Shown: one piece after another, positions 1,267 through 59,454 of the stretch
Position numbering within the stretch: position 1 is the first letter of the stretch
How the letters are laid out: the number at the start of each line of letters is the position of its first letter
Source: Patescibacteria group bacterium
Lineage (GTDB): Bacteria; Patescibacteriota; UBA1384; XYA2-FULL-43-10; 1-14-0-10-43-13
Assembly (NCBI GenBank): GCA_041649155.1
Contig: JBAZNP010000001.1
Location: forward strand, 739,183 to 798,787
Direction: 5' to 3'
DNA: 59,605 nucleotides
Made by a program: the position numbers and the translations under genes
Notes under the pieces: generated by a model
Database searches by the model: none
What the model was told of the DNA's origin: nothing
The model's input: the letters and a program-made list of their open reading frames with translations, nothing else

Positions 1267-1342
1267 TCTAGTTCCTTGTTTTAGAAAGTTGACTTGTTAA
1301 TCGGTTGATTCGTTGACTAATCACAAGTTAACGAAATAATAT

Positions 1343-2578: not shown

Positions 2579-2599
2579 AAGCCCTCCAAAAAAGTAGTT

Positions 2600-2653
2600 C
2601 CGCATTCCGCTTTGCGGAAGCAGGGATGCCTGCTTCGGCTTTGCCGGATGCGG
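2600..2653. repeat. GC-rich multibranch palindromic element upstream of ftsA RBS
   Basis: CCGCAT/ATGCGG closing stem around TTCCGC-ttt-GCGGAA, GCAGG-gatg-CCTGC and CGGC-ttt-GCCG hairpins. Confidence 0.55.
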
Positions 2654-2759
2654 CATAAGTAAATTAACTAAATCAGTAAATCAAAAATAATATATTACAG
2701 CTGATTCACCAATAACTCGTATTTTTATTTTAATATAAAGAAGCCTTAGTTGCAAATAA

Positions 2760-3143
2760 TTAAAAGTTGAATAGCGTTCTGATGTAAGGCAGAAAAATGG
2801 CCAAAGCTACCACAGAAGCAATTACGGCTGATATTAAAACTGCACCGGCCATTGCGTCTTTGACCCCTTTAATAACGGCATGGCTTTCCGGATGCAATAG
2901 ATCAAATGTTTTTTCTATGGCCGTGTTTATAATTTCAATTGCAAAAACCAAAATAACAGCCATAAAGAGGATGGCGGCTTCAAGGCGGGTTACTTCTAAT
3001 ATATATGCCAGTGTGCCTACAAGAATAGTTATTACAGCATGAACTCTTGCATTTTGTTCTGATGTTAGAAGGAAAATAACTCCGTCAACAGCATGCCTGA
3101 AACTCTTGAAAAACTTTTTAAGGTCAAATGGATCATACGTCAT
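2760..3143 (-). CDS. dgkA: Prokaryotic diacylglycerol/undecaprenol kinase family protein
   Basis: SFRHAVDG, EQNARVH, EIINTAIE, KDAMAGAV; hydrophobic; next to ybeY. Confidence 0.9.
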   Translation of the reverse strand: MTYDPFDLKKFFKSFRHAVDGVIFLLTSEQNARVHAVITILVGTLAYILEVTRLEAAILFMAVILVFAIEIINTAIEKTFDLLHPESHAVIKGVKDAMAGAVLISAVIASVVALAIFLPYIRTLFNF

Positions 3144-3154
3144 CTTTCTCCTTT

Positions 3155-3553
3155 TTAAAAGTTACAGTCAATTTTCTCTGCCGCTTTGAGCCAAACGGCT
3201 TCATCTGCTTCATGATCATATCCGCAAAGATGCAGAATTCCGTGTTTAATTAATTCTTCGATTGGTTCTTCTCTTTCGTCTGCGATCTTAGGACAGATCA
3301 CAACGCTACCTAGAATATTTATCTCATTTGATTTAAAAAAAGTTTGAGGAAACGACAAGACATCTGTAGCTTTGTCGATATGTCTGTGCTTATTATTTAA
3401 TTTTTTAATTTCATCTTCGTCAACGAAAATGATTTCCATTTCCAGATTATTTTTTGCATTTAATCTAGAAAGTGCCTCAGAGGCAATGGCCTTTATCTGG
3501 TCTTCTCCTAAAACATCATAATCTGTTTTACGTATAATAACGATATTTGTCAT
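3155..3553 (-). CDS. ybeY: rRNA maturation endoribonuclease YbeY
   Basis: DKATDVLSFP and HGILHLCGYDH metal-binding motif. Confidence 0.95.
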   Translation of the reverse strand: MTNIVIIRKTDYDVLGEDQIKAIASEALSRLNAKNNLEMEIIFVDEDEIKKLNNKHRHIDKATDVLSFPQTFFKSNEINILGSVVICPKIADEREEPIEELIKHGILHLCGYDHEADEAVWLKAAEKIDCNF

Positions 3554-4467
3554 TTTTTCTTGTACTCAATTCTTTGGTGATAGATTGATCGCAGATTTTC
3601 TTTTAAGCTGCTACCAATTATGGCAAGCTCTTTGCTTGATAGGTTGCAGCTTTTGAACTGCTTTTCGTTTAAACGCTCGTCGATTGAGCTGTCGACAATA
3701 TTGTCGATTTGGTCCGATGTAAGATTGACTACTGATCTTGTCGCTGCTTCCACGCAATCAGACAACATTAAAATGGCGGACTCCTTAGTCTGAGGAACTG
3801 GTCCTGGGTATTTAAAATCAGTTCTTTTAATTCTTAGTCCTCTTTCTTTAGCTTGACCATAAAAATACAGAGCTTTTGTTGTACCATGATGTTCTGATAT
3901 TATGTCGATCACGTTTTCTGGCAAGTTGTACAATCTGGCTATATGAATGCCATTTTCAACATGAGAAATAATTGAATTAGCATTTTTTTTGATAGATTCA
4001 GCGTCATCAGCTGTCGGAATTTGTACTCCTGATTGGTTTTCAACGTAAAGAGTAGGGTTTTCCAGCTTACCAATGTCATGATAATAAGCAGCCGTCCGGA
4101 CTAGTAAGGAGTCAGCGCTAATGGCTTTCGCTGCTTTTTGTGCTAATGTCGACACATTTAAAGAATGATGATATGTGCCGGGAGCCTCGCTTGAGAGTCT
4201 CATTATCAGGGGATTGGAAAGATTCTCTATGCGGAGCATTTTACGCAATGTCATCATTGCATCAGAAAGCACCGGATTAAATACAGAAATGCCAATAGTT
4301 AAAATTACTCCAATTATTGCCGCTGAACACAAAAAAATCAATATTTTACCTGATATTGATGGTTCCAAGAGAGTAATTAAGTAGTCAGTAATTAAAAAAA
4401 CTACAAATGCTAATAGCGCTATTACTGCGGACAAATAGTACATGTATTTTGTAGATAATTTTCTCAT
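3550..4467 (-). CDS. Membrane-anchored HDIG-domain phosphohydrolase (short PgpH/YqfF-like)
   Basis: Two N-terminal hydrophobic segments; EAPGTYHHS, AYYHDIGK, EHHGT, DCVEAATRS. Confidence 0.85.
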   Translation of the reverse strand: MRKLSTKYMYYLSAVIALLAFVVFLITDYLITLLEPSISGKILIFLCSAAIIGVILTIGISVFNPVLSDAMMTLRKMLRIENLSNPLIMRLSSEAPGTYHHSLNVSTLAQKAAKAISADSLLVRTAAYYHDIGKLENPTLYVENQSGVQIPTADDAESIKKNANSIISHVENGIHIARLYNLPENVIDIISEHHGTTKALYFYGQAKERGLRIKRTDFKYPGPVPQTKESAILMLSDCVEAATRSVVNLTSDQIDNIVDSSIDERLNEKQFKSCNLSSKELAIIGSSLKENLRSIYHQRIEYKKK

Positions 4468-7434: not shown

Positions 7435-8745
7435 TTAGAGCTGTCCCATTCCTTCATTTCCTGCGGTGTCCCAAGTAGCAAATTTAGCTCTGCTTCCCAG
7501 TTTTTCTTCAATTTCAAGTATTCTGTTATACTTCGCTGTCCTTTCTGATCTGCAGGGAGCTCCGGACTTAATTGTGCCGCATCCGGTTGCGATAGATAGG
7601 TCTGCAATAAAGTCGTCTTCAGTCTCCCCTGATCGATGAGAGATCACTATCTTGAAGCCGGCTTTTTCAGCTATTTTAATCGTTTCCAGCGTTTCCGAAA
7701 GAGTGCCAATTTGATTTGGTTTGATCAGAATGCCAGTGGAAGACTTGTACTGAATTCCCTTCTTCAATAAATCTTTATTTGTAGCATAGAGATCATCGCC
7801 TATCAACTCAACTTTATCTCCAATGCGCTGGGTTAAGTCACGCCAGCCATTCCAGTCGCTTTCGCTCAATCCATCTTCAATCGAGATTATAGGATATTTT
7901 TCGGTCCAGTTCTCATAAAAATCAATCATTTGCCCTGTTGTCAGGGACTGATTTTCCCTATGGAGTTGGTAAATCTCTTCAGAGAAAAACCTGCTAGCGG
8001 CGGGATCAAGAGCAATAAAAACATTTTCTCCGGCAGCGTAATTAGCATTTTTAATAGCCATCATTAAAAGTTCCATTGCCTGTTCGTTTGAAAATAACGA
8101 TGGAGCATATCCTCCTTCATCACCAACCAGCGGCTGATAATTTCTCTCCTCCAATATCTTGGCCAGACTGTGATAAATTTCAGCTCCAACACGCAAAGCT
8201 TCTTTAAAACTATTAAATTTGACCGGAACAATCATGAATTCCTGAAAGTCAGTGGAACCAATAGCATGTTTGCCGCCATTTAGAATATTTAAAAAAGGTA
8301 TAGGCATCGTGTAGCTGTCATTTTTCTTGCCCAATAATTGTCCTATGTACTGATAGAGCGGCATTTTAGAGCTTTTCGAAGCGGCTTTGGCCACAGCAAG
8401 AGAGACTGAAAGGATTGAATTGGCTCCGAGATGGGATTTATTTGGAGTATTATCAAGCTCGATCATGCGTCGGTCAACACTGTATAAATCCAATGCATCC
8501 ATACCGACAATTGCCTCTTTTATTGTGGTATTTACGTTTGAGACAGCCTTTAGCACGCCTTTACCCTCATACCGGTTAAGATCACCATCTCTTAATTCAA
8601 GTGCCTCATTTGTGCCTGTTGAGGCTCCGGAAGGCACAAAACCAAGAGAGTGAACTCCGGTATCCAGCTCAATTTCGCAGGCAATTGTTGGATTGCCACG
8701 AGAGTCAAGTACTTCCCGAGCGTATACATTTTTTATTATTGCCAT
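7435..8745 (-). CDS. eno: Enolase
   Basis: LDSRGNPT, VPSGASTG, GDEGGYAP, IKPNQIGT, SHRSGETED, RSERTAKYN. Confidence 0.99.
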   Translation of the reverse strand: MAIIKNVYAREVLDSRGNPTIACEIELDTGVHSLGFVPSGASTGTNEALELRDGDLNRYEGKGVLKAVSNVNTTIKEAIVGMDALDLYSVDRRMIELDNTPNKSHLGANSILSVSLAVAKAASKSSKMPLYQYIGQLLGKKNDSYTMPIPFLNILNGGKHAIGSTDFQEFMIVPVKFNSFKEALRVGAEIYHSLAKILEERNYQPLVGDEGGYAPSLFSNEQAMELLMMAIKNANYAAGENVFIALDPAASRFFSEEIYQLHRENQSLTTGQMIDFYENWTEKYPIISIEDGLSESDWNGWRDLTQRIGDKVELIGDDLYATNKDLLKKGIQYKSSTGILIKPNQIGTLSETLETIKIAEKAGFKIVISHRSGETEDDFIADLSIATGCGTIKSGAPCRSERTAKYNRILEIEEKLGSRAKFATWDTAGNEGMGQL

Positions 8746-44927: not shown

Positions 44928-45530
44928 TCAGCTTCTTTCAATTTCTTTTGGCTCGTTGCCCGTTAAATTAACAATTTGAGACGGGCCGGATTTTTCAATC
45001 TCTCCCCCATTTATAATCATATTAATTTGATCTAATTCATCTTTGGAATATTGAGTGAATAGTTCATCGATCGAATAACAATCAGGCAGACCCGATTTAT
45101 TGGCTGAAGTTTGGGCAATGATGCCACTGGATGATCCAATAATATCTAAAACTAATTTTGAGTCAGGTATTCTAACGCCCACAGTCCCCTCTTTCATGCA
45201 TAGTTTTGAAATGTCAACATCTTCCTTCGCTTTGATAATAAAGGTGTATTTGCTGGGAACGTGGTCTTTGATATATTTCTCAGCGTTAATATCGAGTTGT
45301 GAGATTTCTTGGATATTTTTAATTTCGGATGCTGCCAGCCCAATTGTTTTATTAATATCTCGGTTTTTAAGCCTGAAAATCTTTTGTAAAGCCTCTTCAC
45401 TTTTGGGGTCGCAAGCATAGCCGTAAACAGTATCAAACGGCAAAATAACAACGCCATTATTTTTAATAACGCTTGCTATTTCTCGTGCTGTCTCTTCAAT
45501 ATTTTCTTTGGTAATTTTTATAATATTCAC
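44928..45530 (-). CDS. tsaC: Threonylcarbamoyl-AMP synthase (TsaC/Sua5 YrdC domain; start GTG 45530)
   Basis: PFDTVYG, IFRLKNR, VGVRIP, QTSANKSG. Confidence 0.92.
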   Translation of the reverse strand: MNIIKITKENIEETAREIASVIKNNGVVILPFDTVYGYACDPKSEEALQKIFRLKNRDINKTIGLAASEIKNIQEISQLDINAEKYIKDHVPSKYTFIIKAKEDVDISKLCMKEGTVGVRIPDSKLVLDIIGSSSGIIAQTSANKSGLPDCYSIDELFTQYSKDELDQINMIINGGEIEKSGPSQIVNLTGNEPKEIERS

Positions 45531-45710
45531 GCTTCTTATTCTAGCACAAAATAAAAAAAAGCGAAGACCAAACTTGTCTGTTCCGGTAAAAATACACGAT
45601 CGACGATATTTACCGGAACAAAACATTTAACATTATGTTTGATAAATGTTTCGCCTTGTTTTTATCTGCCTTTGACAATATAATATTATTGAGTAGATGT
45701 CTTAAGGAGA

Positions 45711-46763
45711 ATGATGTCTGAGCATTTGGATAATATAAATTTAAAGAAAATTGATCCGGAAAATATGCTGTCTCATATTGAGAATTTTCCTCAGGTCTGT
45801 CTTTTAGCATGGAACGAAATGAAGAAGTTTGCTCCTCCCTCTTACTATATAAAACCAAACAAATATGTAATTTTGGGCATGGGAGGTTCGGGTGTTTCTG
45901 GCGAAATCATCAAAGATCTTCTCAAGAATACAAATGCTGTAGTTGAAGTTGTGCATGACTATGAGTTGCCCGGTTGGGTTGACACCGATACTTTGGTGAT
46001 CGCCAATTCTTACTCCGGAAATACCGAAGAAACGTTGTCCGCTTTTATGTCCGCGAAAGAAAAGGGCGCAAAGCTTCTCACCATAACAACAGGAGGTAAA
46101 TTAAAAGTTCTTTCAGATAAGTTTAAGATTCCATGCATAGAATTTAACTACGAATCATTGCCGCGGGCTGCCTTTGCTTACCTTTTTGTTTCCCTTCTGG
46201 CCTTTTTTATTAAAATCGGCCGGTTGGAAATAACTGACTCTGATTTCAACAAATCGATAGAGACGTTGAATGAATATGCTAACAAGTTTAAGTTATCAAA
46301 CCGAACGCAAATCAATCCCGCCAAAATTTTAGCAAGTAAGATTTACGATCTAATGCCTGTTATATATTCAAGCGGTAATTTAATTTCAATCGGTAAGCGT
46401 TTTAAAGAACAATTGAACGAGAATGCCAAGAATTTTGCTTCTCATGAAATTTTCCCCGAATTAAACCACAATAGTATAGAGGGGTACCATCATCCTAAAC
46501 ATGAAGTTATAGTGCTAATACTTGAGTCAAATTACGATCATAGTCGTGTTGTTAAAAGGCAAAATATTACAGCTGAAATATTGAGACGAAATAAAGTCAA
46601 GTTTGAACGCATAAAATTTTTGCCCTGTGACTCGCCGCTTTCGGAAATTTTAGTGGCAACGTTGTTTTGCGATTATGTTTCCTTTTATCTTGCAGTGTTA
46701 AATAACGAAGACCCGACATTGATTAAAAATATTAAATATTTGAAAAACGAATTATCGAAGTAG
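45711..46763 (+). CDS. Bifunctional phosphoglucose/phosphomannose isomerase (SIS domains)
   Basis: GMGGSG, SYSGNTEET, QLNENAK, PELNHNSIEG, DYVSFYLA. Confidence 0.93.
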   Translation: MMSEHLDNINLKKIDPENMLSHIENFPQVCLLAWNEMKKFAPPSYYIKPNKYVILGMGGSGVSGEIIKDLLKNTNAVVEVVHDYELPGWVDTDTLVIANSYSGNTEETLSAFMSAKEKGAKLLTITTGGKLKVLSDKFKIPCIEFNYESLPRAAFAYLFVSLLAFFIKIGRLEITDSDFNKSIETLNEYANKFKLSNRTQINPAKILASKIYDLMPVIYSSGNLISIGKRFKEQLNENAKNFASHEIFPELNHNSIEGYHHPKHEVIVLILESNYDHSRVVKRQNITAEILRRNKVKFERIKFLPCDSPLSEILVATLFCDYVSFYLAVLNNEDPTLIKNIKYLKNELSK

Positions 46764-46778
46764 AAATACTGGAGGGAA

Positions 46779-48338
46779 ATGTTTGTTCAGGGCAAAAAAA
46801 AACCTTTTTTAGCCATTATTCTTGATGGATGGGGTCATGCTCCTGCTTGGGGCGGAAATGCAATTTCTCAGGCTAGGACTAAGAATTTTGATATGATATG
46901 GAAGGAATATCCATCTACTCTATTAAACGCTTCAGATGGAGCTGTCGGTTTGCCTGTGGGCGCTCCAGGAAACTCTGAGGCCGGTCATTTGAATATTGGG
47001 GCAGGTCACATTGTCCGCCAAGACACTCTTCTTATTGATAAACAAATTTCAGATGAATCATTTTTAAACAACAAAGTCATTGTTGACGGCATAAAACATT
47101 CGATTACAAACAGATCAAACGTTCATGTGATGGGTTTGCTTTCAAAAACCGGAACTCATAGTGATATTAGGCATTTGTATGGACTTTTAACGGCATTAAA
47201 GAAAAATAATTGCAAAAAAGTTTACATCCACCTTTTTTCTGACGGTAGAGATTCTCCGCCAATGTCGGGAATTGAAATGGTCGAGGAAGTTGAGCAAAAA
47301 ATCCAGGAGATTGGTCTGGGTACAATTGCATCAATTTCGGGACGTTACTTTGCTATGGACAGGGACAATCGTTGGGGAAGAATTGCTAGGGTATATAATT
47401 TACTTGTTAGGTCTGAGGGTAATTGTCATGAAAATGCACGATCAGCATTTTCATCTGCTTATGCAGCTGGAATGACAGATGAATTCATAGAACCAAGGTG
47501 TGTTTCTAATAAAAATCAGAATTTTGAGCCTATTAGTAACAACGATACGATAATATTTTTTAATTTCAGAAGCGATCGAGCAAGGGAAATCACAAAAGCT
47601 TTTCTGGCTGATCGCATTGTTGACTTTTCCGATCGAAAGAAGTTAAACAATCTTTATTTCGCCTCTTTTGTTATTTATGACGATGAGAGTCTGGCCAAGA
47701 GGATTTTTAATCCAGAGCAGATAACAGAACCTCTTGCAAAAGCATTTTCGGATAATAATTTAAAACAACTTCATATCGCCGAGACCGAAAAATACCCTCA
47801 TATTACGTATTTTATTAATGGTGGCAGAGAACAACCATTTGCTGGCGAAGACAGGATTATGGTTCCGTCGCCAAAACAATTTCGAACATACGACTTCATA
47901 CCTCAAATGAGTGCTCAGAAAGTTACTAAAAAGCTATTGTCTAATATGAAGACAAATAAATACGACTGTTTTCTGGTTAATTTTGCCAATACTGACATGG
48001 TTGGCCATACCGGCAATTTAAGAGCGACTATTCAGGCTGCTGAATTTGTGGATAAGTGTCTGGGTGATATTTTAGCTTTAACCTTAAATTTAGATGGTAC
48101 TGCTTTAATTTTTTCCGATCATGGCAATGCTGAACAAATGGTCAATCCACGCACGGGAGATGCAGATACTGAACACACTACTAATCCTGTTCCGTTCATT
48201 ATTTTCAGTAATAAAAAAGAACATAAAGCTATCAACCTAAAAAAAGGTTGCGGTTTGTCGAACATATCCCCCACTATTCTGGATATATTGAAAATTAATA
48301 AATCTGCCTCAATGACAGAAGAATCATTAATTTTATAA
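46779..48338 (+). CDS. gpmI: 2,3-BPG-independent phosphoglycerate mutase, paralog 1 (intact motifs)
   Basis: LDGWG, GNSEAGH, DGRD, AMDRD, FRSDR, ETEKYPH, NTDMVGH, SDHGNAE, HT. Confidence 0.96.
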   Translation: MFVQGKKKPFLAIILDGWGHAPAWGGNAISQARTKNFDMIWKEYPSTLLNASDGAVGLPVGAPGNSEAGHLNIGAGHIVRQDTLLIDKQISDESFLNNKVIVDGIKHSITNRSNVHVMGLLSKTGTHSDIRHLYGLLTALKKNNCKKVYIHLFSDGRDSPPMSGIEMVEEVEQKIQEIGLGTIASISGRYFAMDRDNRWGRIARVYNLLVRSEGNCHENARSAFSSAYAAGMTDEFIEPRCVSNKNQNFEPISNNDTIIFFNFRSDRAREITKAFLADRIVDFSDRKKLNNLYFASFVIYDDESLAKRIFNPEQITEPLAKAFSDNNLKQLHIAETEKYPHITYFINGGREQPFAGEDRIMVPSPKQFRTYDFIPQMSAQKVTKKLLSNMKTNKYDCFLVNFANTDMVGHTGNLRATIQAAEFVDKCLGDILALTLNLDGTALIFSDHGNAEQMVNPRTGDADTEHTTNPVPFIIFSNKKEHKAINLKKGCGLSNISPTILDILKINKSASMTEESLIL

Positions 48339-48364
48339 ATCACGAAATTATTAATTTAAATAAT

Positions 48365-49951
48365 ATGGAAAATATAAAAAAACCTGTAGTTTTATGCATT
48401 ATCGACGGTTTTGGGTTGTCTGCATCATGGAAGGGCAATGCTATTTTAACTGCAAATCCCAAGAATTTTTTAAATTTTTGGGCAACGTATCCGCATTGTT
48501 TGCTTGCTTACCCAAATACACCTTCAAACGACTTATCTCTCTACAACAATCCCGAGAGCTATCTTTCCTCTTTACTGGAAGGCAGAAAAAATGAGTCTCA
48601 GCGTGAATATATAGATAATAAAATCAAAGAGGACGTGTTATTAAATAATAATGTTTTAAACGATGCTTTTAAACAAGCTTCAGAAAAAAGTTCCTCACTC
48701 CATTTAATTGGAAATTTTTCAGGCAAGTCAGGCAAATATGGTGATTTGGAGCATTTAATTGCACTATTGAGGTTAGCCAAGAAGAGAGGAATTTATCGTG
48801 TCTACACTCATCTTATTATGGACGACACTGGTGGAGACAATGATCAAGCTCTTGATAGTCTTCATATACTAGAAGCTGAAATAGCAAAAATTGGATTAGG
48901 AGAAATCGCGTCCATTTCGGGACTCAACTATCTGCGCGATGAAATGAATGCAAAGACTTTTAAGACTTATAAAGCGATTGTTGAAGGTCGGGGCAATTTC
49001 TATCTTAGTGCCGAACAAGCAATTAATCGAAATAAAAAAACCTCATCATTATTATCCAATATTCCCCCATCTGTAATTACTAGCCAAGGTAATCCAATCG
49101 CAAGAGTTTCAGATTTTGACTCTATTATTTTCTTTAATCACAATAATTTTGAATTAACAAAATTAATAACCGCCCTATCAGCAAATAGCGCTGAAAGTTC
49201 TCAGTTAACTTTGGCAAAATATTTATTTTTAGCTACATTTTTTGATCATGTTTTACCTAAGAGCAATCAGGTAAAATCTATTTTTGAAACCGAAAATAAG
49301 ATTAATTTACCGAATATTTTATCAAATGCGGAGGTTAATCAACTATATCTATCCGACAGTTCTAGAATTTTTTCTATCAAGTCTGGTCTTAGAGGTTTGG
49401 AACAAGCAGGTTATGCGTCTGAGGATTTTATTCCTATTATTAATAAAAATAAATATTTAAATAATCCTAAGGACGTTCTAAATAGCATATTTTCCAAGGC
49501 TGTTGATTCGATTAAACAAAGAAGACACGACTTTATAATGATAGAAGTTCCTTCCATTGATGAAGCGGCAAATTATGGGACATTTGATCAGACTGTGAAG
49601 GCGGTGAAAGCTATTGATGAGTTTTTGCCATCCCTGTTCCAAAGTATTGAAGACTCAAATGGCTCTTTAATTCTAACATCGTTGTATGGAAATGCTGAAA
49701 AAATGGTTCAACGAAGTTCATATGAATTATTAAACAACAGAACAATAAATCCGGTTCCGTTTATTCTGGCAACAAAAGATTCTCAGAAAAAATCGGCGAT
49801 CACAAATATTGCATCAGAGTTAATGTGTGGTATGATGTCAAAGAAGAATCATTTAACAGATATTGCGCCAACTATACTTGAACTATTAGATTTACCGGTT
49901 CCAAAAGAATTTTCCGGTAAGAGTTTGGTTTCACAAAAAAGCGCTTTTTAA
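48365..49951 (+). CDS. iPGM-like paralog lacking catalytic residues (probable pseudoenzyme)
   Basis: Collinear with iPGM end to end (IDGFG, NPVPFIL, LTDIAPTILELL) but NNPESYL, DDTGG, LRDE, DSSR, IDEAAN, SLYGN, RT replace the active motifs. Confidence 0.85.
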   Translation: MENIKKPVVLCIIDGFGLSASWKGNAILTANPKNFLNFWATYPHCLLAYPNTPSNDLSLYNNPESYLSSLLEGRKNESQREYIDNKIKEDVLLNNNVLNDAFKQASEKSSSLHLIGNFSGKSGKYGDLEHLIALLRLAKKRGIYRVYTHLIMDDTGGDNDQALDSLHILEAEIAKIGLGEIASISGLNYLRDEMNAKTFKTYKAIVEGRGNFYLSAEQAINRNKKTSSLLSNIPPSVITSQGNPIARVSDFDSIIFFNHNNFELTKLITALSANSAESSQLTLAKYLFLATFFDHVLPKSNQVKSIFETENKINLPNILSNAEVNQLYLSDSSRIFSIKSGLRGLEQAGYASEDFIPIINKNKYLNNPKDVLNSIFSKAVDSIKQRRHDFIMIEVPSIDEAANYGTFDQTVKAVKAIDEFLPSLFQSIEDSNGSLILTSLYGNAEKMVQRSSYELLNNRTINPVPFILATKDSQKKSAITNIASELMCGMMSKKNHLTDIAPTILELLDLPVPKEFSGKSLVSQKSAF

Positions 49952-49981: not shown

Positions 49982-51976
49982 GTGATGGAAAAAATTGAAC
50001 AATTAGTAAATCCTAGTTCGGTCGCTATTATTGGCGCCTCGGCTGATTCAACCAAGATCGGATATCAAATTACAAACAATTTAATTTCCGGCCATTTTGT
50101 CGGTAAAATTTTTCCTGTGAATCCAAAAGAAGACAAAATATTGGGACTAAAAGCTTATGCAGACATTTCTTTAATTAAAGAGCAAGTAGACTTGGCGGTA
50201 ATCGTCATACCTGCCCAATTTGTGCTTCAGATAATAAAGCAATGTGCAGAAAATCATGTTAAATCCATTATTATTATCAGTGCCGGATTTGCTGAGATCG
50301 GCGAAGATGGAGAGAAATTGCAGGATGAAATAGTTGAAGTTTGCAGAGAAGCTGGTATTACAATGCTGGGGCCTAACTGTCTTGGTTTGATTAATACAGA
50401 TGCGAAGTTAAATGCCTCTTTCGCTCAACTTATGCCAAAAGAGGGTAATATCTCCTTTGTCTCCCAATCGGGAGCGATGATTGCTGCTTTAATCGACTGG
50501 TCTAAAAGTGCTTCAGTCGGATTTAATAAGATTTTTTCTATGGGAAACAAGGCTGATATTCGCGAAGAATCGGTTTTGGAATACTTATATAATGATTCGT
50601 CAACCAAGGTCATAGTCGCTTATTTTGAGCAAATCAATGTTAATAAAGAATTAACTGAGTTGTTTGTTAAATATTCTAAAATAAAACCGACTATTGTTTT
50701 ATTTGGCGGTAAAACAAGTCTGGGAGCCAAGGCTGCTTCTTCACATACCGGCTCAGTGATTTCCTCTTATTTAGCAGTTGAAACATATCTAAAGCAGGCC
50801 GGAGTCATAGTAGCATCAAACTTGTCTGAAATATTTATGTATTGTCAGCTTTTTTCCAATTATCAAAAGATTAACGGTGACAATGTCGCAATTGTTACAA
50901 ATGCCGGCGGTCCAGGAATTGTAACTTGTGATGAGTTATTCGCAAGAAACTTAAATCTGGCCAAGCTTTCAGAAAAAACAACTGAATTATTGAGCAAAAT
51001 TTGTCGCCCATGTGCCAATATTAATAATCCAGTTGATATATTGGGTGATGCAACCAAGGAAGACTACCAAAAAACTCTCGGGGTTGTTGAGGCGGACCCG
51101 AATATTAATAGTATCTTGGTGCTTTTAACTCCTCAGTCTGCAACTGATGCTCTGGGAACAGCCCAAATGATTGCTGACTTCTCGTCTTCAAAACCAATTA
51201 TTTCGGTATTTATTGGCGGTGAAAATTTAAGTGAGGCGAGGACGGTAATTGAAAAATCAAATAAGCCTTGTTACGTTAGTCCGGATGAGGCGGTACATTC
51301 ATTGGAGACGCTAGTTGCTTTTAATAAAAATTTACCAAAACTTTTACCTCTCGAAAAAGGTAATGATACTTTTAATGAGAGCAATAAGAACGAATGTTTA
51401 AAAAAATTCAATTTGCCCATACTAGAATACTCCAAAGTTGAATCAATTGATGAATTAAAAAAACACTCTTTAAATATTGGATATCCGGTTGTGCTCAAAA
51501 CGGCAAAATCTGAAATCGTGCATAAATCTGACAGTGGCGGCGTCAAGCTAAATATTCAAAATGATGCAGAACTTGAAGAAGCATTTTCCGAACTTGGATC
51601 ACCTGTGATTATTGGAAAAATGGTTAAAGGCAAGCACGAGATATTTCTTGGTATTAAAAAAGATCCGAATATTGGTACTTTGGTTGCTTTTGGTACTGGC
51701 GGAATTTATTCTGAAATTTACAAAGATCTTTCATATCGGGTCGCTCCAATATCAAAAAATGTTGCACTTGATATGATAAATGAAACTAAAATTGGTCAGG
51801 TTTTGAATGGAGCTCGTGGTCAGGATAAGTATGATTTTGATAAGCTGTCAGAGGTTATTGTAAATGCAGCTAAATTTGCTGATGCATATGAAAATATTAA
51901 AGAAATTGACTTTAATCCATTGATTGCTTCATATCCAGATTTTTATATTGTTGATGTTCGGATTATTGAGGGGTAA
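49982..51976 (+). CDS. ADP-forming acetate/acyl-CoA ligase, alpha-beta fusion
   Basis: IIGASAD, GPNCLG, SQSGA, FSMGN, ASSHTG phospho-His, TNAGGPG, NPVDILG, HKSDSGGV ATP-grasp, EIDFNP. Confidence 0.95.
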   Translation: MMEKIEQLVNPSSVAIIGASADSTKIGYQITNNLISGHFVGKIFPVNPKEDKILGLKAYADISLIKEQVDLAVIVIPAQFVLQIIKQCAENHVKSIIIISAGFAEIGEDGEKLQDEIVEVCREAGITMLGPNCLGLINTDAKLNASFAQLMPKEGNISFVSQSGAMIAALIDWSKSASVGFNKIFSMGNKADIREESVLEYLYNDSSTKVIVAYFEQINVNKELTELFVKYSKIKPTIVLFGGKTSLGAKAASSHTGSVISSYLAVETYLKQAGVIVASNLSEIFMYCQLFSNYQKINGDNVAIVTNAGGPGIVTCDELFARNLNLAKLSEKTTELLSKICRPCANINNPVDILGDATKEDYQKTLGVVEADPNINSILVLLTPQSATDALGTAQMIADFSSSKPIISVFIGGENLSEARTVIEKSNKPCYVSPDEAVHSLETLVAFNKNLPKLLPLEKGNDTFNESNKNECLKKFNLPILEYSKVESIDELKKHSLNIGYPVVLKTAKSEIVHKSDSGGVKLNIQNDAELEEAFSELGSPVIIGKMVKGKHEIFLGIKKDPNIGTLVAFGTGGIYSEIYKDLSYRVAPISKNVALDMINETKIGQVLNGARGQDKYDFDKLSEVIVNAAKFADAYENIKEIDFNPLIASYPDFYIVDVRIIEG

Positions 51977-52139
51977 AATTAGAAAGAAGCAATAGCTGTT
52001 TCTGCAAATAATTTAAAATTTAAAAGGTTTAAACATTGGAAATTAAAAATTTATAATTCATTTTAAATTATAAATTGCCCTAAAAGGGTTCCTTCGGAAA
52101 AAATTTTAAATTTTGTTGATAAACATGGAGAGGACTTTT

Positions 52140-53174
52140 ATGAAAAATATTCAATTTTTAACTGGATGCGAAGCGGCCGTTAAAGGCGCACTTGAAGCCG
52201 GTGCAGAAGCAATGTTTGGTTATCCAATTACTCCTTCAACGGAAATTTTGCAGGGTTGGATTGCTGAAGCAGAGAAAAATAAATCTCTAAAATATTTGCA
52301 AACTGAAGACGAAACTTCGGCTGGTTTTGCTGTATGCGGAGCATTGTTGGCTGGCACGAAAGCTTTCACTGCTACTGCGGGCCCCGGCAGTATCTTAATG
52401 CAAGATCCCCTTTCTATGTCGGAAAACCTTCGTCTACCCTTTGTTTGTATTTTTATGCAGCGAGGAGGCCCTTCAACTGGTACAGTCAATTTTTCACAAC
52501 AGGAAGTTAATCTTTCTGCTTTTGGTGGAAATGGTGATGGTCTGCGTTTTGTCTATTCTGCTTCTACTGTGGAGGAAATGTATACTTTGACTATTAAAGC
52601 TTTTTCAACTGCATGGAAATATCGCTTCCCTACCTTTGTTCTTGGCGACGGGCATCTTTCTAAAATGAAAATGAAGGCTAATATAGTGAAGCCGATTAAT
52701 TCTGTTAAAAGCTCTTTAATATTGAAAGAAAGTAAAACTCCTACATTTTTACGCAATTGTTATAGTTCAGAAGAAGAATTCGGGCAGATATTGAAAGTTA
52801 ATATTGAAGATTGGAAAGAAGCATCAAAAAAGATTGAGGAATTTGAATTATATAAAGCCGGTGATGCAAAAGAATTAATAATAGCACATGGTTCTGTGGC
52901 GGATGCTGCCAAAGAAGCAGTTGATATTTTGCGTAGTCAGAGAAAAAAGATTGGCCTATTTCGCCCAATTACGGTTCACCCTATCGCATCTACGGCTTTA
53001 CGCAAGGCTGTGGCTAAGGCGAAAAAGGTATATGTGGTAGAGTCTTCGCTAAATCAGTTTTCTAGAATTGTAAAATATGAAACCAGCGGGCTAAAAACCC
53101 CAATCATTGAAATATCAAAGCCCGCAGAAAGTTTTTCCGCCGAAGAAATGGTTAGAAAGATATTAACATCATAA
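52140..53174 (+). CDS. 2-oxoacid:ferredoxin oxidoreductase alpha subunit (Vor/Kor type; start 52140)
   Basis: GYPITPSTEI, QTEDE, TATAGPG, QRGGPSTG. Confidence 0.93.
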   Translation: MKNIQFLTGCEAAVKGALEAGAEAMFGYPITPSTEILQGWIAEAEKNKSLKYLQTEDETSAGFAVCGALLAGTKAFTATAGPGSILMQDPLSMSENLRLPFVCIFMQRGGPSTGTVNFSQQEVNLSAFGGNGDGLRFVYSASTVEEMYTLTIKAFSTAWKYRFPTFVLGDGHLSKMKMKANIVKPINSVKSSLILKESKTPTFLRNCYSSEEEFGQILKVNIEDWKEASKKIEEFELYKAGDAKELIIAHGSVADAAKEAVDILRSQRKKIGLFRPITVHPIASTALRKAVAKAKKVYVVESSLNQFSRIVKYETSGLKTPIIEISKPAESFSAEEMVRKILTS

Positions 53175-53202
53175 ACATCTAACAATAAAGAGAAGACAAT
53201 AG

Positions 53203-53276
53203 GCTCAACTCATTAAATTTCTAGGCGCTCTCAAGGCTACATGCGCTTGCAACCGTCGAAATTTAACAAGTCTCAC
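53203..53276 (+). repeat. Structured dispersed repeat, family B copy 4
   Basis: CTCATTAAATTTCTAGGCGCTCTCAA...ACCGTCGAAATTTAACAAGTCTCAC. Confidence 0.8.
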
Positions 53277-53302
53277 CTATTCTATATTTAGAAGGGACTT
53301 AT

Positions 53303-54043
53303 ATGGAAAATATAATGCCAGCATCCTGGCGCAGTCAGACAAAGCCACACCTTTTTTGTCCTGGTTGCGGCCATGGAACTACATTAAAACAATTAGGCTA
53401 TGCAATTGACGAGTTAAAAATTCAAGATAGAACTACTTTTGGTATTGACATCGGTTGTTCCTTATTGGCTTGGAATTTTTTTAATATTGATACAGTTCAA
53501 ACTCACCACGGAAGAACAACGCCCGTAATGGTTGGATATAAAATTATGAAGCCGAAAAGAATTGCTATTGCATACATGGGTGATGGCGGCGGCTATGCCA
53601 TTGGTCTACAATCGCTTCTTCACGCTGCTTTTAGAAACGATCCAATTACGGTAATTCTAGTCAATAATTCGTTATACGGCATGACTGGCGGCCAGATGGC
53701 TCCCACTACCCGTCCAGGGGAGGTAACCGTGACTTCTCCAAACGGTAAACCTGCTGAATTTGGTGATGGGCTTAAGGGGCCTGAACTGGTTAGACAGGTA
53801 GCAAATAAAAAAGCATATGTAGCGCGAGCATCAATTTCCAAGCCTATAGTCCTGAGAAATACATTAAAAAAGGCACTAGAAAATCAAGCTAAAAATAACG
53901 CTTTCTCGTTTGTAGAAGTCGTTTCGATTTGTCCGACAAACTGGAAAATGAACGCCAAGCAATGTTTTTCTAGATTGTCTGATATGGAAGACTATTATCC
54001 TTTGGGTGAAGTTTTAGCACAAAAGGAGAAAAATGCCGAATAA
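53303..54043 (+). CDS. 2-oxoacid:ferredoxin oxidoreductase beta (TPP-binding) subunit
   Basis: FCPGCGHG, DIGCS, HGRT, GDGG...NN, YGMTGGQMAPT, ICPTNW. Confidence 0.95.
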   Translation: MENIMPASWRSQTKPHLFCPGCGHGTTLKQLGYAIDELKIQDRTTFGIDIGCSLLAWNFFNIDTVQTHHGRTTPVMVGYKIMKPKRIAIAYMGDGGGYAIGLQSLLHAAFRNDPITVILVNNSLYGMTGGQMAPTTRPGEVTVTSPNGKPAEFGDGLKGPELVRQVANKKAYVARASISKPIVLRNTLKKALENQAKNNAFSFVEVVSICPTNWKMNAKQCFSRLSDMEDYYPLGEVLAQKEKNAE

Positions 54044-54863
54044 AACAAAAAAAATAAATATAACTCTCGCCGGAGAAGGCGGCCAAGGTATTCAGACAAT
54101 TGCCAAGATTTTAAGCGAAGCAGCGATTGCTTCCTGTCACGAAGTGGCCTACATGCCGGTTTTTGGAGTTGAGCAACGCGGAACTCCTTCTGTTGCTCAT
54201 ATTACCGTATCAGACAAACAACTACGTTATCCTAAATTTGATATCGCGGACTATGTGATAGTTTTGCAGTCAAGAGCAATAAAAGCAGTGGAGCAATACG
54301 TTTCTCCTAACACAAAGGTTATTTTTGATAGTTCAACCATATCAGCAAAAGATTTACCTAAAACTTCTGTACACATCCTTGGAATGCCGGCAACCAAACT
54401 TGCCCACGAGCAATTCAATCCAAAGGCATTTAATATAATAGTGCTTGGTGTGCTAACAAAAATATTAGATATTCCAGAAAAAGATATTTGGGAACTAGTG
54501 ATGAAAGTTCTTGGCAAGAAATTCAAAACTGATGAGATTAAAAATTCAAATAAAGAAGCTCTTTCATTTGGAAGAGAACTGATTTTGGAAAAAGATAACT
54601 TTTCTAAAGCAACTTATAAGACAAAACATAAGTCAATTGTTTTTAAAGGTTATGGTAAAACCGGCCAGATTTCCCCCACACGTTGCAAGGGTTGTGGGAT
54701 TTGTATTGTGAAATGCCCTGTTGGCGCCCTTTCATTCGGTGAAGATTTGGGTGTTTACGCCACTGCCATACCAAAAGTTGATCTGGAAAAATGTATTGCC
54801 TGTGGCAATTGCAGAAATTTTTGCCCGGACGGCGCAATTAATATTAACAAGGATAGTAAATAA
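54033..54863 (+). CDS. 2-oxoacid:ferredoxin oxidoreductase gamma subunit fused to 2x[4Fe-4S] delta domain
   Basis: AGEGGQG, FGVEQRGTPS; CKGCGICIVKCP and CIACGNCRNFCP. Confidence 0.93.
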   Translation: MPNKTKKINITLAGEGGQGIQTIAKILSEAAIASCHEVAYMPVFGVEQRGTPSVAHITVSDKQLRYPKFDIADYVIVLQSRAIKAVEQYVSPNTKVIFDSSTISAKDLPKTSVHILGMPATKLAHEQFNPKAFNIIVLGVLTKILDIPEKDIWELVMKVLGKKFKTDEIKNSNKEALSFGRELILEKDNFSKATYKTKHKSIVFKGYGKTGQISPTRCKGCGICIVKCPVGALSFGEDLGVYATAIPKVDLEKCIACGNCRNFCPDGAININKDSK

Positions 54864-57858: not shown

Positions 57859-59454
57859 ATGCATAGTCCAAAAGTTATATTAGTGATCATGGATGGCTGG
57901 GGATATAGCCCTGTTAAGAAGGGTAACGCCATTTTTGAGGCAAAGACTCCCAATTTTGATTATTTTTGGAACAATTATTCTCATACATTGTTAAATTCTT
58001 TTGGAGAAAATGTTGGTCTACCTTGGGGCTCCATAGGATCATCCGAAGTTGGCCATACATCTATCGGTAGTGGGAAACTTGTTAATCAGGAACTTTCACT
58101 TATTGATAAGGAAATATACAACGGTAATTTTTACCATAATCAAAAGATTATCAATGCAATCAATAAAACTAAAGAAAAAGGAAAATCGATACATCTTGTT
58201 GGATTAGTTAGTGATGGTGGCGTTCACAGTCACATGGAGCATCTCTTTGCTCTCTTAAAGATTTTAAAAATGCAGGGATTTAAATCGAATATTTTTATTC
58301 ATGTCTTTACTGATGGCCGCGATACTAGTCCGACAAGTGCCACACAATATATCGGCGACCTGCAAAAAAATATCAAAAAAATTGGGGTTGATGCCAGAAT
58401 TGCTACGGTGTCAGGACGATTTTTTGCAATGGATCGGGATAGTCGATGGGATCGTACTAAAAAAGTTTATCTTGCAATGACGAAATTAGAAGGTATCCAT
58501 TCTGATAATCCGATTAGTGCTATTAAAAAACAATATGCCAAAAAAAATACTGACGAGTTTATTGAACCTATTATAATAGATCAAAAACAAGAATCTGTCA
58601 TATCAAAATTATTTCAGAAACCGACAAAAGCACGTTCCGGAAAAATTGAGGAGGGTGATGGAGTTATTTTCTTTAATATTAGGCCGGATCGAATGCGCCA
58701 AATCAGCGAAATATTCTCATTTGAACGCAAAGATTTAGGCACATCACCTATTAATGATTTGGAAATTTTATCTTTAACTACATATAATAAATATTTGCCT
58801 ATCGATGTTGCATATCCATCAAAAGTAATTGAAAATCCGCTTGCTAAAATTTTAAGCGATCATAAAATAAAACAAAGTCATTTTGCTGAGACGGAGAAAT
58901 ATGCCCATGTAACATATTTCTTCAATGGAGGTAACCCTGAACCATTTCCTTATGAGACATGGCATTTAGTCTCTTCTCCGAAAGTTTTGACTTATGATCT
59001 AAAACCAGAGATGTCAGCTGATAAAGTAACTGCAGAGGTCTTTAATGCGATTGAAAAAGAGAATTTAGATTTTGTGTTGATCAATTATGCTAATACAGAC
59101 ATGGTTGGCCACACCGGTAAATTTGAAAAAGTTGTCATAGCTGCTGAAACAGTAGACAAACAACTTGGAAAATTGATAAAGAAATTTCCAAATTCCACTT
59201 TTTTAATTACTGCAGATCATGGTAATGCTGAGTGTATGATTCATCCTGAAACTGGAGAAGTGGACAAGAAGCATACTGTTAACCCAGTACCATTTATTAT
59301 TGTTAATGAAAATTTTAAGAAAAAAATAAATTCCAATGATACGCCTAAGCCAACAGGAATTTTAGCTGATATTGCTCCGACTGTTCTTTATTTTTTTGGA
59401 CTCAAAAAAAATAAAGATATGGATGGAGTAGCTTTAATCGATAGCTTGAAATAG
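57859..59454 (+). CDS. gpmI: 2,3-BPG-independent phosphoglycerate mutase, paralog 3 (intact motifs)
   Basis: MDGWG, GSSEVGH, DGRD, AMDRD, IRPDR, ETEKYAHVT, NTDMVGH, ADHGNAE, HT. Confidence 0.95.
   Translation: MHSPKVILVIMDGWGYSPVKKGNAIFEAKTPNFDYFWNNYSHTLLNSFGENVGLPWGSIGSSEVGHTSIGSGKLVNQELSLIDKEIYNGNFYHNQKIINAINKTKEKGKSIHLVGLVSDGGVHSHMEHLFALLKILKMQGFKSNIFIHVFTDGRDTSPTSATQYIGDLQKNIKKIGVDARIATVSGRFFAMDRDSRWDRTKKVYLAMTKLEGIHSDNPISAIKKQYAKKNTDEFIEPIIIDQKQESVISKLFQKPTKARSGKIEEGDGVIFFNIRPDRMRQISEIFSFERKDLGTSPINDLEILSLTTYNKYLPIDVAYPSKVIENPLAKILSDHKIKQSHFAETEKYAHVTYFFNGGNPEPFPYETWHLVSSPKVLTYDLKPEMSADKVTAEVFNAIEKENLDFVLINYANTDMVGHTGKFEKVVIAAETVDKQLGKLIKKFPNSTFLITADHGNAECMIHPETGEVDKKHTVNPVPFIIVNENFKKKINSNDTPKPTGILADIAPTVLYFFGLKKNKDMDGVALIDSLK

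What the first reader, a model, noticed from the sequence alone, without database searches (positions are those of the whole stretch)
48365..49951. Full-length, catalytically stripped iPGM paralog kept inside the glycolysis/fermentation operon
Seen: a 528-aa ORF collinear with the adjacent iPGM with nearly every functional motif replaced: GNSEAGH to NNPESYL (phosphoserine lost), DGRD to DDTG, GRYFAMDRD to GLNYLRDE, FRSDR to FNHNN, ETEK to DSSR, DMVGH to DEAAN, SDHGN to SLYGN, HT to RT. It has no stop or frameshift and sits 26 bp after gpmI and 30 bp before the acyl-CoA ligase. Established: iPGM needs the Ser, two-metal Asp/His ligands and substrate-binding Arg residues. Inference: keeping 1.6 kb intact in a reduced genome suggests a pseudoenzyme role such as a scaffold, allosteric partner or metabolite sensor.
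Basis: partly seen in the sequence, partly recalled or inferred. Interest (0 to 1): 0.7.

Follow-up and report, generated by a model that had tools for sequence, protein, structure and literature searches.

The report
Conserved dead copy of phosphoglycerate mutase
Right after a working phosphoglycerate mutase gene, this small-genome Saccharibacteria (TM7) bacterium keeps a full-length second copy that has lost 14 of 16 catalytic residues; natural selection has kept it across the bacterial family, so it very probably has an undescribed non-enzymatic job.

Summary
ORF 48365-49951 (+) encodes a 528-aa, full-length homolog of cofactor-independent phosphoglycerate mutase (iPGM). It is 26% identical to the canonical iPGM 26 nt upstream and keeps only 2 of 16 catalytic, metal or substrate residues.

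It is not a decaying duplicate.
- Orthologs at 80-34% identity share the losses.
- dN/dS is about 0.09-0.13, against 0.03-0.04 for the active neighbour and 0.07 for ACD.
- 20 of 23 genomes of the window's family carry an open, degenerate copy (476-531 aa) at this position in the operon PGI - iPGM_A - iPGM_B - ACD - PFOR. In the other three it is cut by a contig end, fragmentary, or not found.

Sister families of the order mostly keep copy B catalytically intact. On the iPGM_A tree, catalysis in B was lost about four times independently.

B evolves about 3-6 times faster than A and usually lacks its own Shine-Dalgarno site. It starts within 10 nt of A's stop codon in 23 of 23 relatives with a degenerate copy.

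Best reading: a selected pseudoenzyme, probably made by coupled translation and acting with an active iPGM. The partner role is inferred, not shown. I found no published iPGM pseudoenzyme. Earlier notes of this scan report similar dead copies in other Patescibacteria.

The parts
44928..45626 (-). Sua5/YciO/YrdC-family gene, divergently oriented. It marks the conserved upstream border of the operon.
   Evidence: Pfam PF01300 at 128 bits. The same neighbour is found in L011, L012 and most relatives.
45711..46763 (+). Bifunctional phosphoglucose/phosphomannose isomerase (PGI/PMI), first gene of the operon, with the Shine-Dalgarno site AAGGAGA.
   Evidence: Pfam bact-PGI_C 135 bits; TIGR02128 249.9 against cut-off 213.9. 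Upstream sequence.
46779..48338 (+). iPGM_A: canonical cofactor-independent phosphoglycerate mutase with 16/16 catalytic residues and the Shine-Dalgarno site GGAGGG.
   Evidence: TIGR01307 586.6 against cut-off 330.65; site table; phmmer to PDB 1EJJ E 8.6e-133.
48339..48364 (+). A/T-rich 26-nt spacer between A and B with no Shine-Dalgarno-like sequence.
   Evidence: Sequence. In 23/23 relatives with a degenerate B, the gap from A's stop to B's start is <=10 nt, median 0.
48365..49951 (+). iPGM_B: the finding. A full-length iPGM-fold protein with 2/16 catalytic residues, under purifying selection (pseudoenzyme).
49982..51976 (+). ADP-forming acetyl/acyl-CoA synthetase (ACD, fused alpha-beta), with the Shine-Dalgarno site AAGGAA.
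   Evidence: Pfam CoA_binding_2, Succ_CoA_lig and ATP-grasp_5. TIGR02717 517.6, just under its cut-off of 567.
52113..54863 (+). Three genes for a pyruvate/2-oxoacid:ferredoxin oxidoreductase: alpha 52113-53174, beta 53303-54043, gamma-delta with 2x[4Fe-4S] 54033-54863.
   Evidence: Pfam POR_N/PFOR_II, TPP_enzyme_C and POR+Fer4. Same order in L011 and L013.
57859..59454 (+). iPGM_C: a further canonical iPGM paralog with 16/16 catalytic residues. A fourth copy, iPGM_D, lies outside the window at about G000:C1:581.6-583.1 kb (-).

Best explanation
ORF 48365-49951 encodes a catalytically dead protein with the iPGM fold (a pseudoenzyme). It descends from an old tandem duplicate, copy B, of the operon's active iPGM, copy A. 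In the ancestor of the window's Saccharibacteria family, copy B lost the Ser nucleophile, five of seven Mn ligands and all basic substrate-binding residues. Selection has nevertheless kept it as a full-length protein ever since. It is most likely made from the same mRNA as iPGM_A by termination-reinitiation or coupled translation, since it has no Shine-Dalgarno site of its own. I propose that it acts as a non-catalytic partner that stabilises or regulates an active iPGM, a 'prozyme-like' arrangement. One route to this state is entrenchment: an ancestral iPGM homo-oligomer became a heteromer after duplication, and one subunit could then lose catalysis but not its structural role. Shown: homology and fold, loss of catalytic residues, purifying selection, family-wide retention, conserved position, tight A-B junction. 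Inferred: lack of activity, physical interaction with iPGM_A, the entrenchment route. My odds: about 0.9 that it is a selected non-catalytic protein, and about 0.45 that its job is exerted on or with an active iPGM. The confidence given here is for the whole statement, including the partner role.
For: 1. Homology and fold. It is collinear with iPGM_A over the full length and both Pfam domains are found. The AF2 model has pLDDT 76.8 and pTM 0.75. Its best PDB matches are G. stearothermophilus iPGM 1O99/1O98/1EJJ at TM 0.68-0.70.
2. Catalytic loss. Only 2 of 16 residues are kept, and TIGR01307 scores 206 against a cut-off of 330.
3. Selection. NG86 dN/dS is 0.092, 0.104 and 0.134 in three pairwise comparisons. 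iPGM_A gives 0.03-0.04, ACD 0.07 and PGI 0.02-0.04 on the same contigs.
4. Retention. 20 of 23 family genomes have an open degenerate B of 476-531 aa. Median pairwise identity is 23% for B and 56% for A. The chance of a 476-codon open frame is about 8e-15.
5. Vertical co-inheritance. The family's B copies lie on one side of a branch with 100% SH-aLRT support, and their sub-clades mirror those of A.
6. Coupling. The window's B and four orthologs lack a Shine-Dalgarno site, while PGI, A, ACD and C have one. The gap from A's stop to B's start is <=10 nt in 23/23 degenerate loci, often an overlap. An SD-like 4-mer precedes 8/23 B copies and 18/23 A copies.
7. Recurrence. On the A tree the degenerate state needs at least 3-4 changes, and a return from 0-5/16 to 14-16/16 is implausible, so there were about four independent losses, each next to an intact A.
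8. No new site. No B-specific polar motif is conserved across the family. The columns that stay conserved are mostly structural Gly, Asp, His and Pro shared with canonical iPGMs. This fits a role based on fold or shape.
Against: No interaction evidence of any kind was obtained, and no multimer prediction could be run. To my own knowledge, bacterial iPGMs are usually described as monomers. In G008 the degenerate copy directly follows PGI, and no A ortholog was found in that 90%-complete assembly; its other iPGM is C/D-like. So B does not strictly need A next to it, though it could pair with C or D. Tight gene junctions are common in small genomes. dS is near saturation (1.1-1.35), so the dN/dS values are approximate. 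Within the near clade several replacement residues at former active-site positions are themselves conserved (R261->N, H445->Y, K336->R, H462->R/K). That could point to a local ligand site and not only to a partner interface.
Confidence: 0.5

Rival explanations
1. B is a selected non-catalytic protein, but its job does not involve iPGM. It could be a scaffold or adaptor for another operon product (PGI, ACD, PFOR), or a binder or sensor of a small molecule in the remodelled interdomain cleft.
For: G008 keeps B directly after PGI with no A ortholog detected. In the near clade (>=39% identity) the substituted cleft residues are conserved: N at R261, Y at H445, R at K336, Y/F at H123, R/K at H462. 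The C-terminal 40 residues are as conserved in B as in A.
Against: Across the whole family the former cleft positions vary freely; position R261, for example, becomes N, A, P, F, I, D, T, L or E. No B-specific polar motif is conserved, which argues against one conserved ligand. The next gene downstream changes between lineages (ACD, or PduL plus AckA) while degenerate B copies occur with both. That argues against a fixed partnership with ACD.
Confidence: 0.3
2. B is still an enzyme, either with residual mutase or phosphatase activity or with a new chemistry that uses different residues.
For: The fold is intact. D12 and D403 are kept in the window and in most near relatives. Some relatives keep Ser62 or His445. 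Purifying selection is real.
Against: The nucleophile Ser62 is Pro here. Five of seven metal ligands and all seven basic or acid-base substrate residues are gone. The replacements differ from genus to genus, so there is no conserved alternative catalytic set. The protein evolves 3-6 times faster than the active copy.
Confidence: 0.07
3. The amino-acid sequence is not what selection keeps. The frame is kept open only so that ribosomes travel through to the downstream gene, for translational coupling or mRNA stability.
For: B lacks a Shine-Dalgarno site and sits between well-expressed-looking genes. It diverges very fast, with a median of 23% identity within the family.
Against: dN/dS of about 0.1 shows constraint at the amino-acid level. 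iPGM profile homology and fold-defining residues persist across the family. ACD has its own Shine-Dalgarno site 30 nt downstream, so it does not need coupling. A 1.6-kb spacer would be an expensive solution in a 1-Mb genome.
Confidence: 0.05
4. B is a decaying duplicate, a young pseudogene that has not yet been disrupted.
For: B evolves faster than A. It has the lowest GC (33.8%) and one of the lowest GC3 values (27.2%) among the eight genes compared; iPGM_C is similar at 34.1% and 25.9%. One independent lineage, G037, has a shortened 369-aa copy lacking most of the transferase domain.
Against: dN/dS is about 0.1. Open full-length orthologs occur in 20 of 23 family genomes spanning 16-55% identity. 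Vertical inheritance mirrors A. The chance of such frames staying open neutrally is negligible.
Confidence: 0.03

Closest known systems
Cofactor-independent phosphoglycerate mutase (GpmI/GpmM, EC 5.4.2.12; TIGR01307; PDB 1EJJ/1O98/1O99 of Geobacillus stearothermophilus, 2IFY, 4MY4)
   Same: Same two-domain architecture (alkaline-phosphatase-like core with an inserted transferase domain) and same length. It is collinear from end to end at 26-28% identity. Both Pfam domains are found, and Foldseek gives TM 0.68-0.70.
   Different: It lacks the Ser62 nucleophile, Mn ligands H407, D444, H445 and H462, and substrate residues H123, R153, D154, R185, R191, R261, R264 and K336. It scores below the equivalog cut-off and evolves 3-6 times faster than the active copy. 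Public sources nevertheless name its relatives as iPGM.
Catalytically intact 'copy B' iPGMs in sister Saccharibacteria families (e.g. P0020-P0022; L007/L008 second gene)
   Same: Same position directly downstream of iPGM_A in the same operon. They are the nearest canonical branches to the degenerate clade in the tree.
   Different: They keep 14-16 of 16 catalytic residues, with lineage-specific changes R191->K or R153->L/I/M. They are followed by PduL plus AckA in place of ACD.
Dead-paralog activators ('prozymes') of Trypanosoma brucei AdoMetDC and deoxyhypusine synthase (PMC5201418, PMC3663545)
   Same: A catalytically dead paralog of a metabolic enzyme is kept by selection alongside the active paralog. 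This is a functional analogy for the proposed partner role.
   Different: The enzyme families are unrelated and the organisms are eukaryotes, where heteromer formation and activation were shown experimentally. Nothing of that kind is shown here, and the active iPGM_A keeps all its catalytic residues.
Dead tandem iPGM paralogs noted earlier in this scan in other Patescibacteria (e1-1142868, e1-826571, e1-729933, e1-1036336) and the shortened, transferase-domain-less form (e1-877841)
   Same: The same pattern recurs: a canonical iPGM followed by a degenerate copy, often overlapping, and kept by selection. The 369-aa copy of G037 resembles the domain-less form.
   Different: Those notes concern other lineages and are unreviewed AI notes. 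By sequence look-up no look-alike of this protein is on record in the scan, so this is a separate clade.

Membership tests
iPGM (GpmI, EC 5.4.2.12; TIGR01307 equivalog) | Two-domain iPGM fold (Metalloenzyme core plus iPGM_N insert), full length | tested here: met
   Pfam PF01676 89 bits and PF06415 100 bits. AF2 model with Foldseek TM 0.68-0.70 to 1O99/1O98/1EJJ.
iPGM (GpmI, EC 5.4.2.12; TIGR01307 equivalog) | Score above the curated equivalog cut-off | tested here: not met
   TIGR01307 206.5 against 330.65; NF003897 163.7 against 862.
iPGM (GpmI, EC 5.4.2.12; TIGR01307 equivalog) | Phosphoserine nucleophile (Ser62, G. stearothermophilus numbering) | tested here: not met
   Pro at this position (NNPESYL). 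The Ser62 column was verified against the S62A entry 1O99.
iPGM (GpmI, EC 5.4.2.12; TIGR01307 equivalog) | Binuclear Mn site: D12, S62, D444, H445 / D403, H407, H462 | tested here: not met
   Only D12 and D403 are kept. S62P, H407N, D444L, H445Y, H462R. The ligand list is from my own knowledge of the 1EJJ/1O98 structures.
iPGM (GpmI, EC 5.4.2.12; TIGR01307 equivalog) | Phosphoglycerate-binding residues H123, R153, D154, R185, R191, R261, R264, K336 | tested here: not met
   They become Y, T, G, L, E, N, E and R respectively.
iPGM (GpmI, EC 5.4.2.12; TIGR01307 equivalog) | 3PG<->2PG mutase activity | not testable with these tools
   Needs an enzyme assay.
Pseudoenzyme (selected, catalytically dead paralog) | Clear homology to an enzyme family with loss of essential catalytic residues | tested here: met
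Pseudoenzyme (selected, catalytically dead paralog) | Maintained by purifying selection and retained across species | tested here: met
   dN/dS 0.09-0.13. Open orthologs in 20 of 23 family genomes.
Pseudoenzyme (selected, catalytically dead paralog) | Expressed as a protein | not testable with these tools
Amino-acid-level constraint is only indirect evidence.
Prozyme-like dead subunit of an active paralog | Physical complex with the active paralog and an effect on its activity | not testable with these tools
   Only circumstantial: a conserved A-B junction <=10 nt in 23/23 loci and no Shine-Dalgarno site of its own. Counter-example G008.

The most novel reading that the evidence does not exclude
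In Saccharibacteria, and possibly widely in Patescibacteria, the textbook-monomeric glycolytic iPGM works as a heteromer of tandem paralogs. In the window's family the second subunit has become an obligatory dead subunit, made by coupled translation, that stabilises or gates the active enzyme. That would be a bacterial glycolytic 'prozyme'. The state arose about four times independently within one order, as expected if duplicated self-interacting enzymes become entrenched as heteromers.
Probability: 0.3. Interest if true: 0.7.

Novelty: new variant of a known kind. Interest (0 to 1): 0.5.

Why it matters
Pseudoenzymes are a known kind, but I found no described pseudoenzyme of the iPGM family in the paper library. 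Databases name these proteins as active 2,3-bisphosphoglycerate-independent phosphoglycerate mutases. That inflates metabolic reconstructions of candidate phyla radiation (CPR) bacteria. A genome of about 1 Mb that spends 1.6 kb on a dead enzyme, family-wide, inside its main ATP-yielding operon (sugar-phosphate isomerase, iPGM, pyruvate oxidation, acetate/ATP formation) implies a function worth finding. The wider pattern is unexplained: three to five iPGM genes per genome, with tandem pairs and triples across the class. The repeated independent loss of catalysis next to an intact copy offers a natural series, from intact to partly altered to dead to domain-less. That series could be used to study how duplicated enzymes turn into non-catalytic partners.

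Tried and rejected
1. The search for related loci with the single protein found no confirmed locus. The profile of 16 orthologs found six.
3. I tried to prepare a pseudo-complex prediction. In L005, A and B are in frame, so they can be read as one 1049-aa chain with TAA as a residue. MAFFT placed the single A sequences on the B half. The alignment was unusable and the job was not submitted. No multimer predictor is on hand.
Conservation could not be mapped onto the surface, so only a conservation profile along the sequence was made.
5. Literature searches for iPGM pseudoenzymes, Saccharibacteria iPGM paralogs and Tn-seq data on these genes gave nothing relevant.
6. I looked for a new conserved motif that would indicate a new active or ligand site. 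The 'LSxxQ' signature is also near the consensus of canonical iPGMs, and the near-clade motifs FFNHNN and SDSxR are not conserved family-wide. This was rejected as evidence for a neo-enzyme.
7. The decaying-pseudogene reading was rejected.
8. A mirror-tree co-evolution test of A against B was considered and not run. B distances are saturated and shared phylogeny would dominate; the raw correlation of pairwise identities is 0.47.

Full report
**1. What is there**

The window comes from a genome of about 0.99 Mb in 6 contigs, 96% complete. Its relatives are titled Candidatus Saccharibacteria (TM7).

ORF 48365-49951 (+) encodes 528 aa with no stop or frameshift. It lies 26 nt after a canonical iPGM (46779-48338, here iPGM_A) and 30 nt before an ADP-forming acyl-CoA synthetase (ACD). 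The local gene order is:
- Sua5 (-), divergent
- PGI/PMI
- iPGM_A
- the ORF (iPGM_B)
- ACD
- pyruvate:ferredoxin oxidoreductase alpha, beta and gamma-delta

This order rests.

The ORF aligns with iPGM_A end to end at 26% identity, E 6e-54. It has both iPGM Pfam domains at reduced scores (100 and 89 bits, against 241 and 242 for A). It falls below the TIGR01307 equivalog cut-off (206.5 against 330.65; A scores 586.6).

An AlphaFold2 model built on 16 orthologs has mean pLDDT 76.8 and pTM 0.75. The low-confidence stretches are 48-62, 442-461 and 477-528, which include the former Ser62 and His462 loops. Foldseek ranks G. stearothermophilus iPGM structures first, 1O99/1O98/1EJJ at TM 0.68-0.70.

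**2. Catalytic residues**

I used G. stearothermophilus numbering. D12 and S62 were checked against 1EJJ and the S62A entry 1O99. The rest of the residue list comes from my own knowledge of those structures.

The window protein keeps 2 of 16 positions, D12 and D403. The changes are S62P, H66L, H123Y, R153T, D154G, R185L, R191E, R261N, R264E, K336R, H407N, D444L, H445Y and H462R. The genome's other three iPGM genes (A, C at 57859-59454, and D elsewhere on contig 1) keep 16/16.

**3. It is not decaying**

A search of 5.8 billion proteins found a graded series of orthologs at 80, 76, 56-51, 45-39 and 38-34% identity. All are 517-538 aa long, and they keep 1-4 of the 16 positions.

The two closest orthologs sit on contigs with the same gene order. 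Nei-Gojobori dN/dS for the three pairwise comparisons on those contigs:

| Gene | dN/dS |
|---|---|
| iPGM_B (the ORF) | 0.092, 0.104, 0.134 |
| iPGM_A | 0.032-0.041 |
| ACD | 0.066-0.075 |
| PGI | 0.023-0.036 |

dS is 1.1-1.35, near saturation, so these values are approximate. dN of B is 2.4-3.0 times that of A.

**4. Distribution**

A profile search of 40 related genomes, followed by extraction of the loci, shows that the operon is conserved throughout the order. Its order is Sua5(-) | PGI - iPGM_A - iPGM_B - (ACD, or PduL + AckA) - PFOR.

- **The window's family (f1).** 20 of 23 genomes carry a copy B that is open (476-531 aa) and keeps 0-4 of 16 catalytic residues. In the other three the locus is cut by a contig end (G021), fragmentary (G022), or not found (G020, 90% complete).
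- **Sister families (f2-f4).** B mostly keeps 14-16 of 16 residues, with lineage-specific R191K or R153L/I/M. The exceptions are G023, G032, G036 and G038 (0-5 of 16) and G037.
- **G037.** Its B is a 369-aa in-frame copy lacking most of the transferase domain.
- **iPGM_A.** It is 16/16 wherever it is complete.

On the iPGM_A tree, used as a species proxy, the degenerate state needs at least 3-4 changes: all of f1, then G023/G032/G036, then G038, then G037. Shuffled labels need about 10. Regaining more than 10 catalytic residues is implausible, so these are about four independent losses.

In a joint tree the f1 B copies lie on one side of a branch with 100% SH-aLRT support, and their sub-clades mirror those of A. 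Terminal branches are 0.4-3.5 substitutions per site for B (1.0-3.5 outside the window's own genus pair) and 0.14-0.56 for A. Long branches make the internal order of B unsure. Median pairwise identity within f1 is 23% for B and 56% for A. A random frame of this composition stays open for 476 codons with probability of about 8e-15.

At class level, tandem pairs and triples of high-scoring iPGM genes are common.

**5. Clues to how it works**

- **Translation.** B has no Shine-Dalgarno sequence in the window or in four orthologs, while PGI, A, ACD, PFOR-gamma and C have one. In 23 of 23 loci with a degenerate B, the gap between A's stop and B's start is <=10 nt (median 0, often overlapping). Only 8 of 23 have even a 4-mer SD-like match, against 18 of 23 for A. 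This suggests coupled translation with A.
- **Where constraint sits.** Relative to A, constraint in B has moved away from the catalytic loops (residues 39-77, 157-211, 330-405). It now falls on the N-terminal strand, the cores of both domains and the C-terminal 40 residues, which are as conserved as in A.
- **The former cleft.** Within the near clade several replacement residues are themselves fixed (N261, Y445, R336, Y/F123, R/K462). Across the family these positions vary freely, and no B-specific polar motif is conserved. The columns that remain conserved are mostly structural residues shared with canonical iPGMs. This argues against a conserved new active or ligand site and for a role that depends on the fold.
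- **A counter-example.** In G008, B follows PGI directly and no A ortholog is present in the assembly. The only other iPGM there is C/D-like. So adjacency to A is not obligatory.

**6. Interpretation**

The gene is a selected pseudoenzyme (my odds about 0.9). The most likely mechanism (about 0.45) is a non-catalytic partner of an active iPGM, made from the same message. It may have become entrenched after duplication of a self-interacting enzyme.

The rivals, with my odds:
- a non-catalytic role unrelated to iPGM, such as a scaffold or sensor: 0.3
- a residual or new enzyme: 0.07
- a frame kept open only for translation through it: 0.05
- a decaying duplicate: 0.03

**7. Comparison and novelty**

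By fold and descent it belongs to the iPGM family, but it fails every functional membership feature tested. The closest functional analogy is the trypanosomatid 'prozyme' (PMC5201418, PMC3663545).

I found no paper describing an iPGM pseudoenzyme or discussing the tandem iPGM arrays of Saccharibacteria. One paper notes only that phosphoglycerate mutase is among functions enriched in animal-associated Saccharibacteria (PMC8406219).

Earlier AI notes of this scan report similar dead tandem copies in other Patescibacteria lineages, and a domain-less form. They are leads, not evidence, but they fit the recurrent-loss pattern measured here.

**8. Limits**

There is no multimer prediction and no surface mapping. 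dS is saturated. The MAG assemblies are incomplete.

Noticed in passing
window 46779-48338, 48365-49951, 57859-59454; G000:C1 about 581.6-583.1 kb (-): The genome, about 0.99 Mb, carries four iPGM-family genes: three with all 16 catalytic residues and one dead. Relatives carry 2-6, and tandem pairs and triples of apparently intact iPGMs are common across the class. Why reduced genomes keep so many iPGM copies is unexplained.
   Followed up: partly
G000:C1 about 583.1 kb (-), outside the window (paralog D): iPGM_D has no ATG, GTG or TTG upstream of its essential Asp12. A strong Shine-Dalgarno site (AAGGGAGGG) is followed by TAT ATA CAA AAA. The first canonical start would delete the N-terminal metal ligand, so a non-canonical start (ATA?) is likely.
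   Followed up: partly
L007 3433-5090; L020, L032-L048: In the sister families, and in G007 of the window's family, ACD is replaced at the same operon position by PduL-type phosphotransacylase (PF06130, 187 bits) plus acetate kinase. The one-step and two-step acetate/ATP routes are swapped in place.
   Followed up: partly
L046 (G037:C16) 2607-3716 (-): Copy B here is a 369-aa open frame that keeps the N- and C-terminal parts of the phosphatase-type domain in frame but lacks most of the transferase domain. It resembles the domain-less dead iPGM noted earlier in this scan.
   Followed up: partly
L050 (G008:C118) 422-3052 (-): A degenerate copy B (0/16 residues, 516 aa) directly follows PGI with no iPGM_A between them. 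The only other iPGM found in that assembly is C/D-like.
   Followed up: partly
protein P0028 (ENA metagenome): An iPGM from another CPR-like clade is partly degenerate (H66S, R153L, K336G, D403/H407 lost, H462S) while keeping Ser62, D444 and H445. This looks like a further independent case of erosion of the catalytic site.
   Followed up: no
window 7435-8745 (-) and G000:C1:103174-104028 (+): The genome has two enolase genes, one of them in this window, and one PGK gene. Lower glycolysis is therefore present, and enolase is duplicated as well.
   Followed up: no
L012 5861-6001: In the ortholog at 76% identity, the A-B spacer is 139 nt instead of 1-26 nt. The 26 nt before B's start resemble the 3' coding end of A in L011, which suggests a small duplication or indel at the junction.
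   Followed up: no
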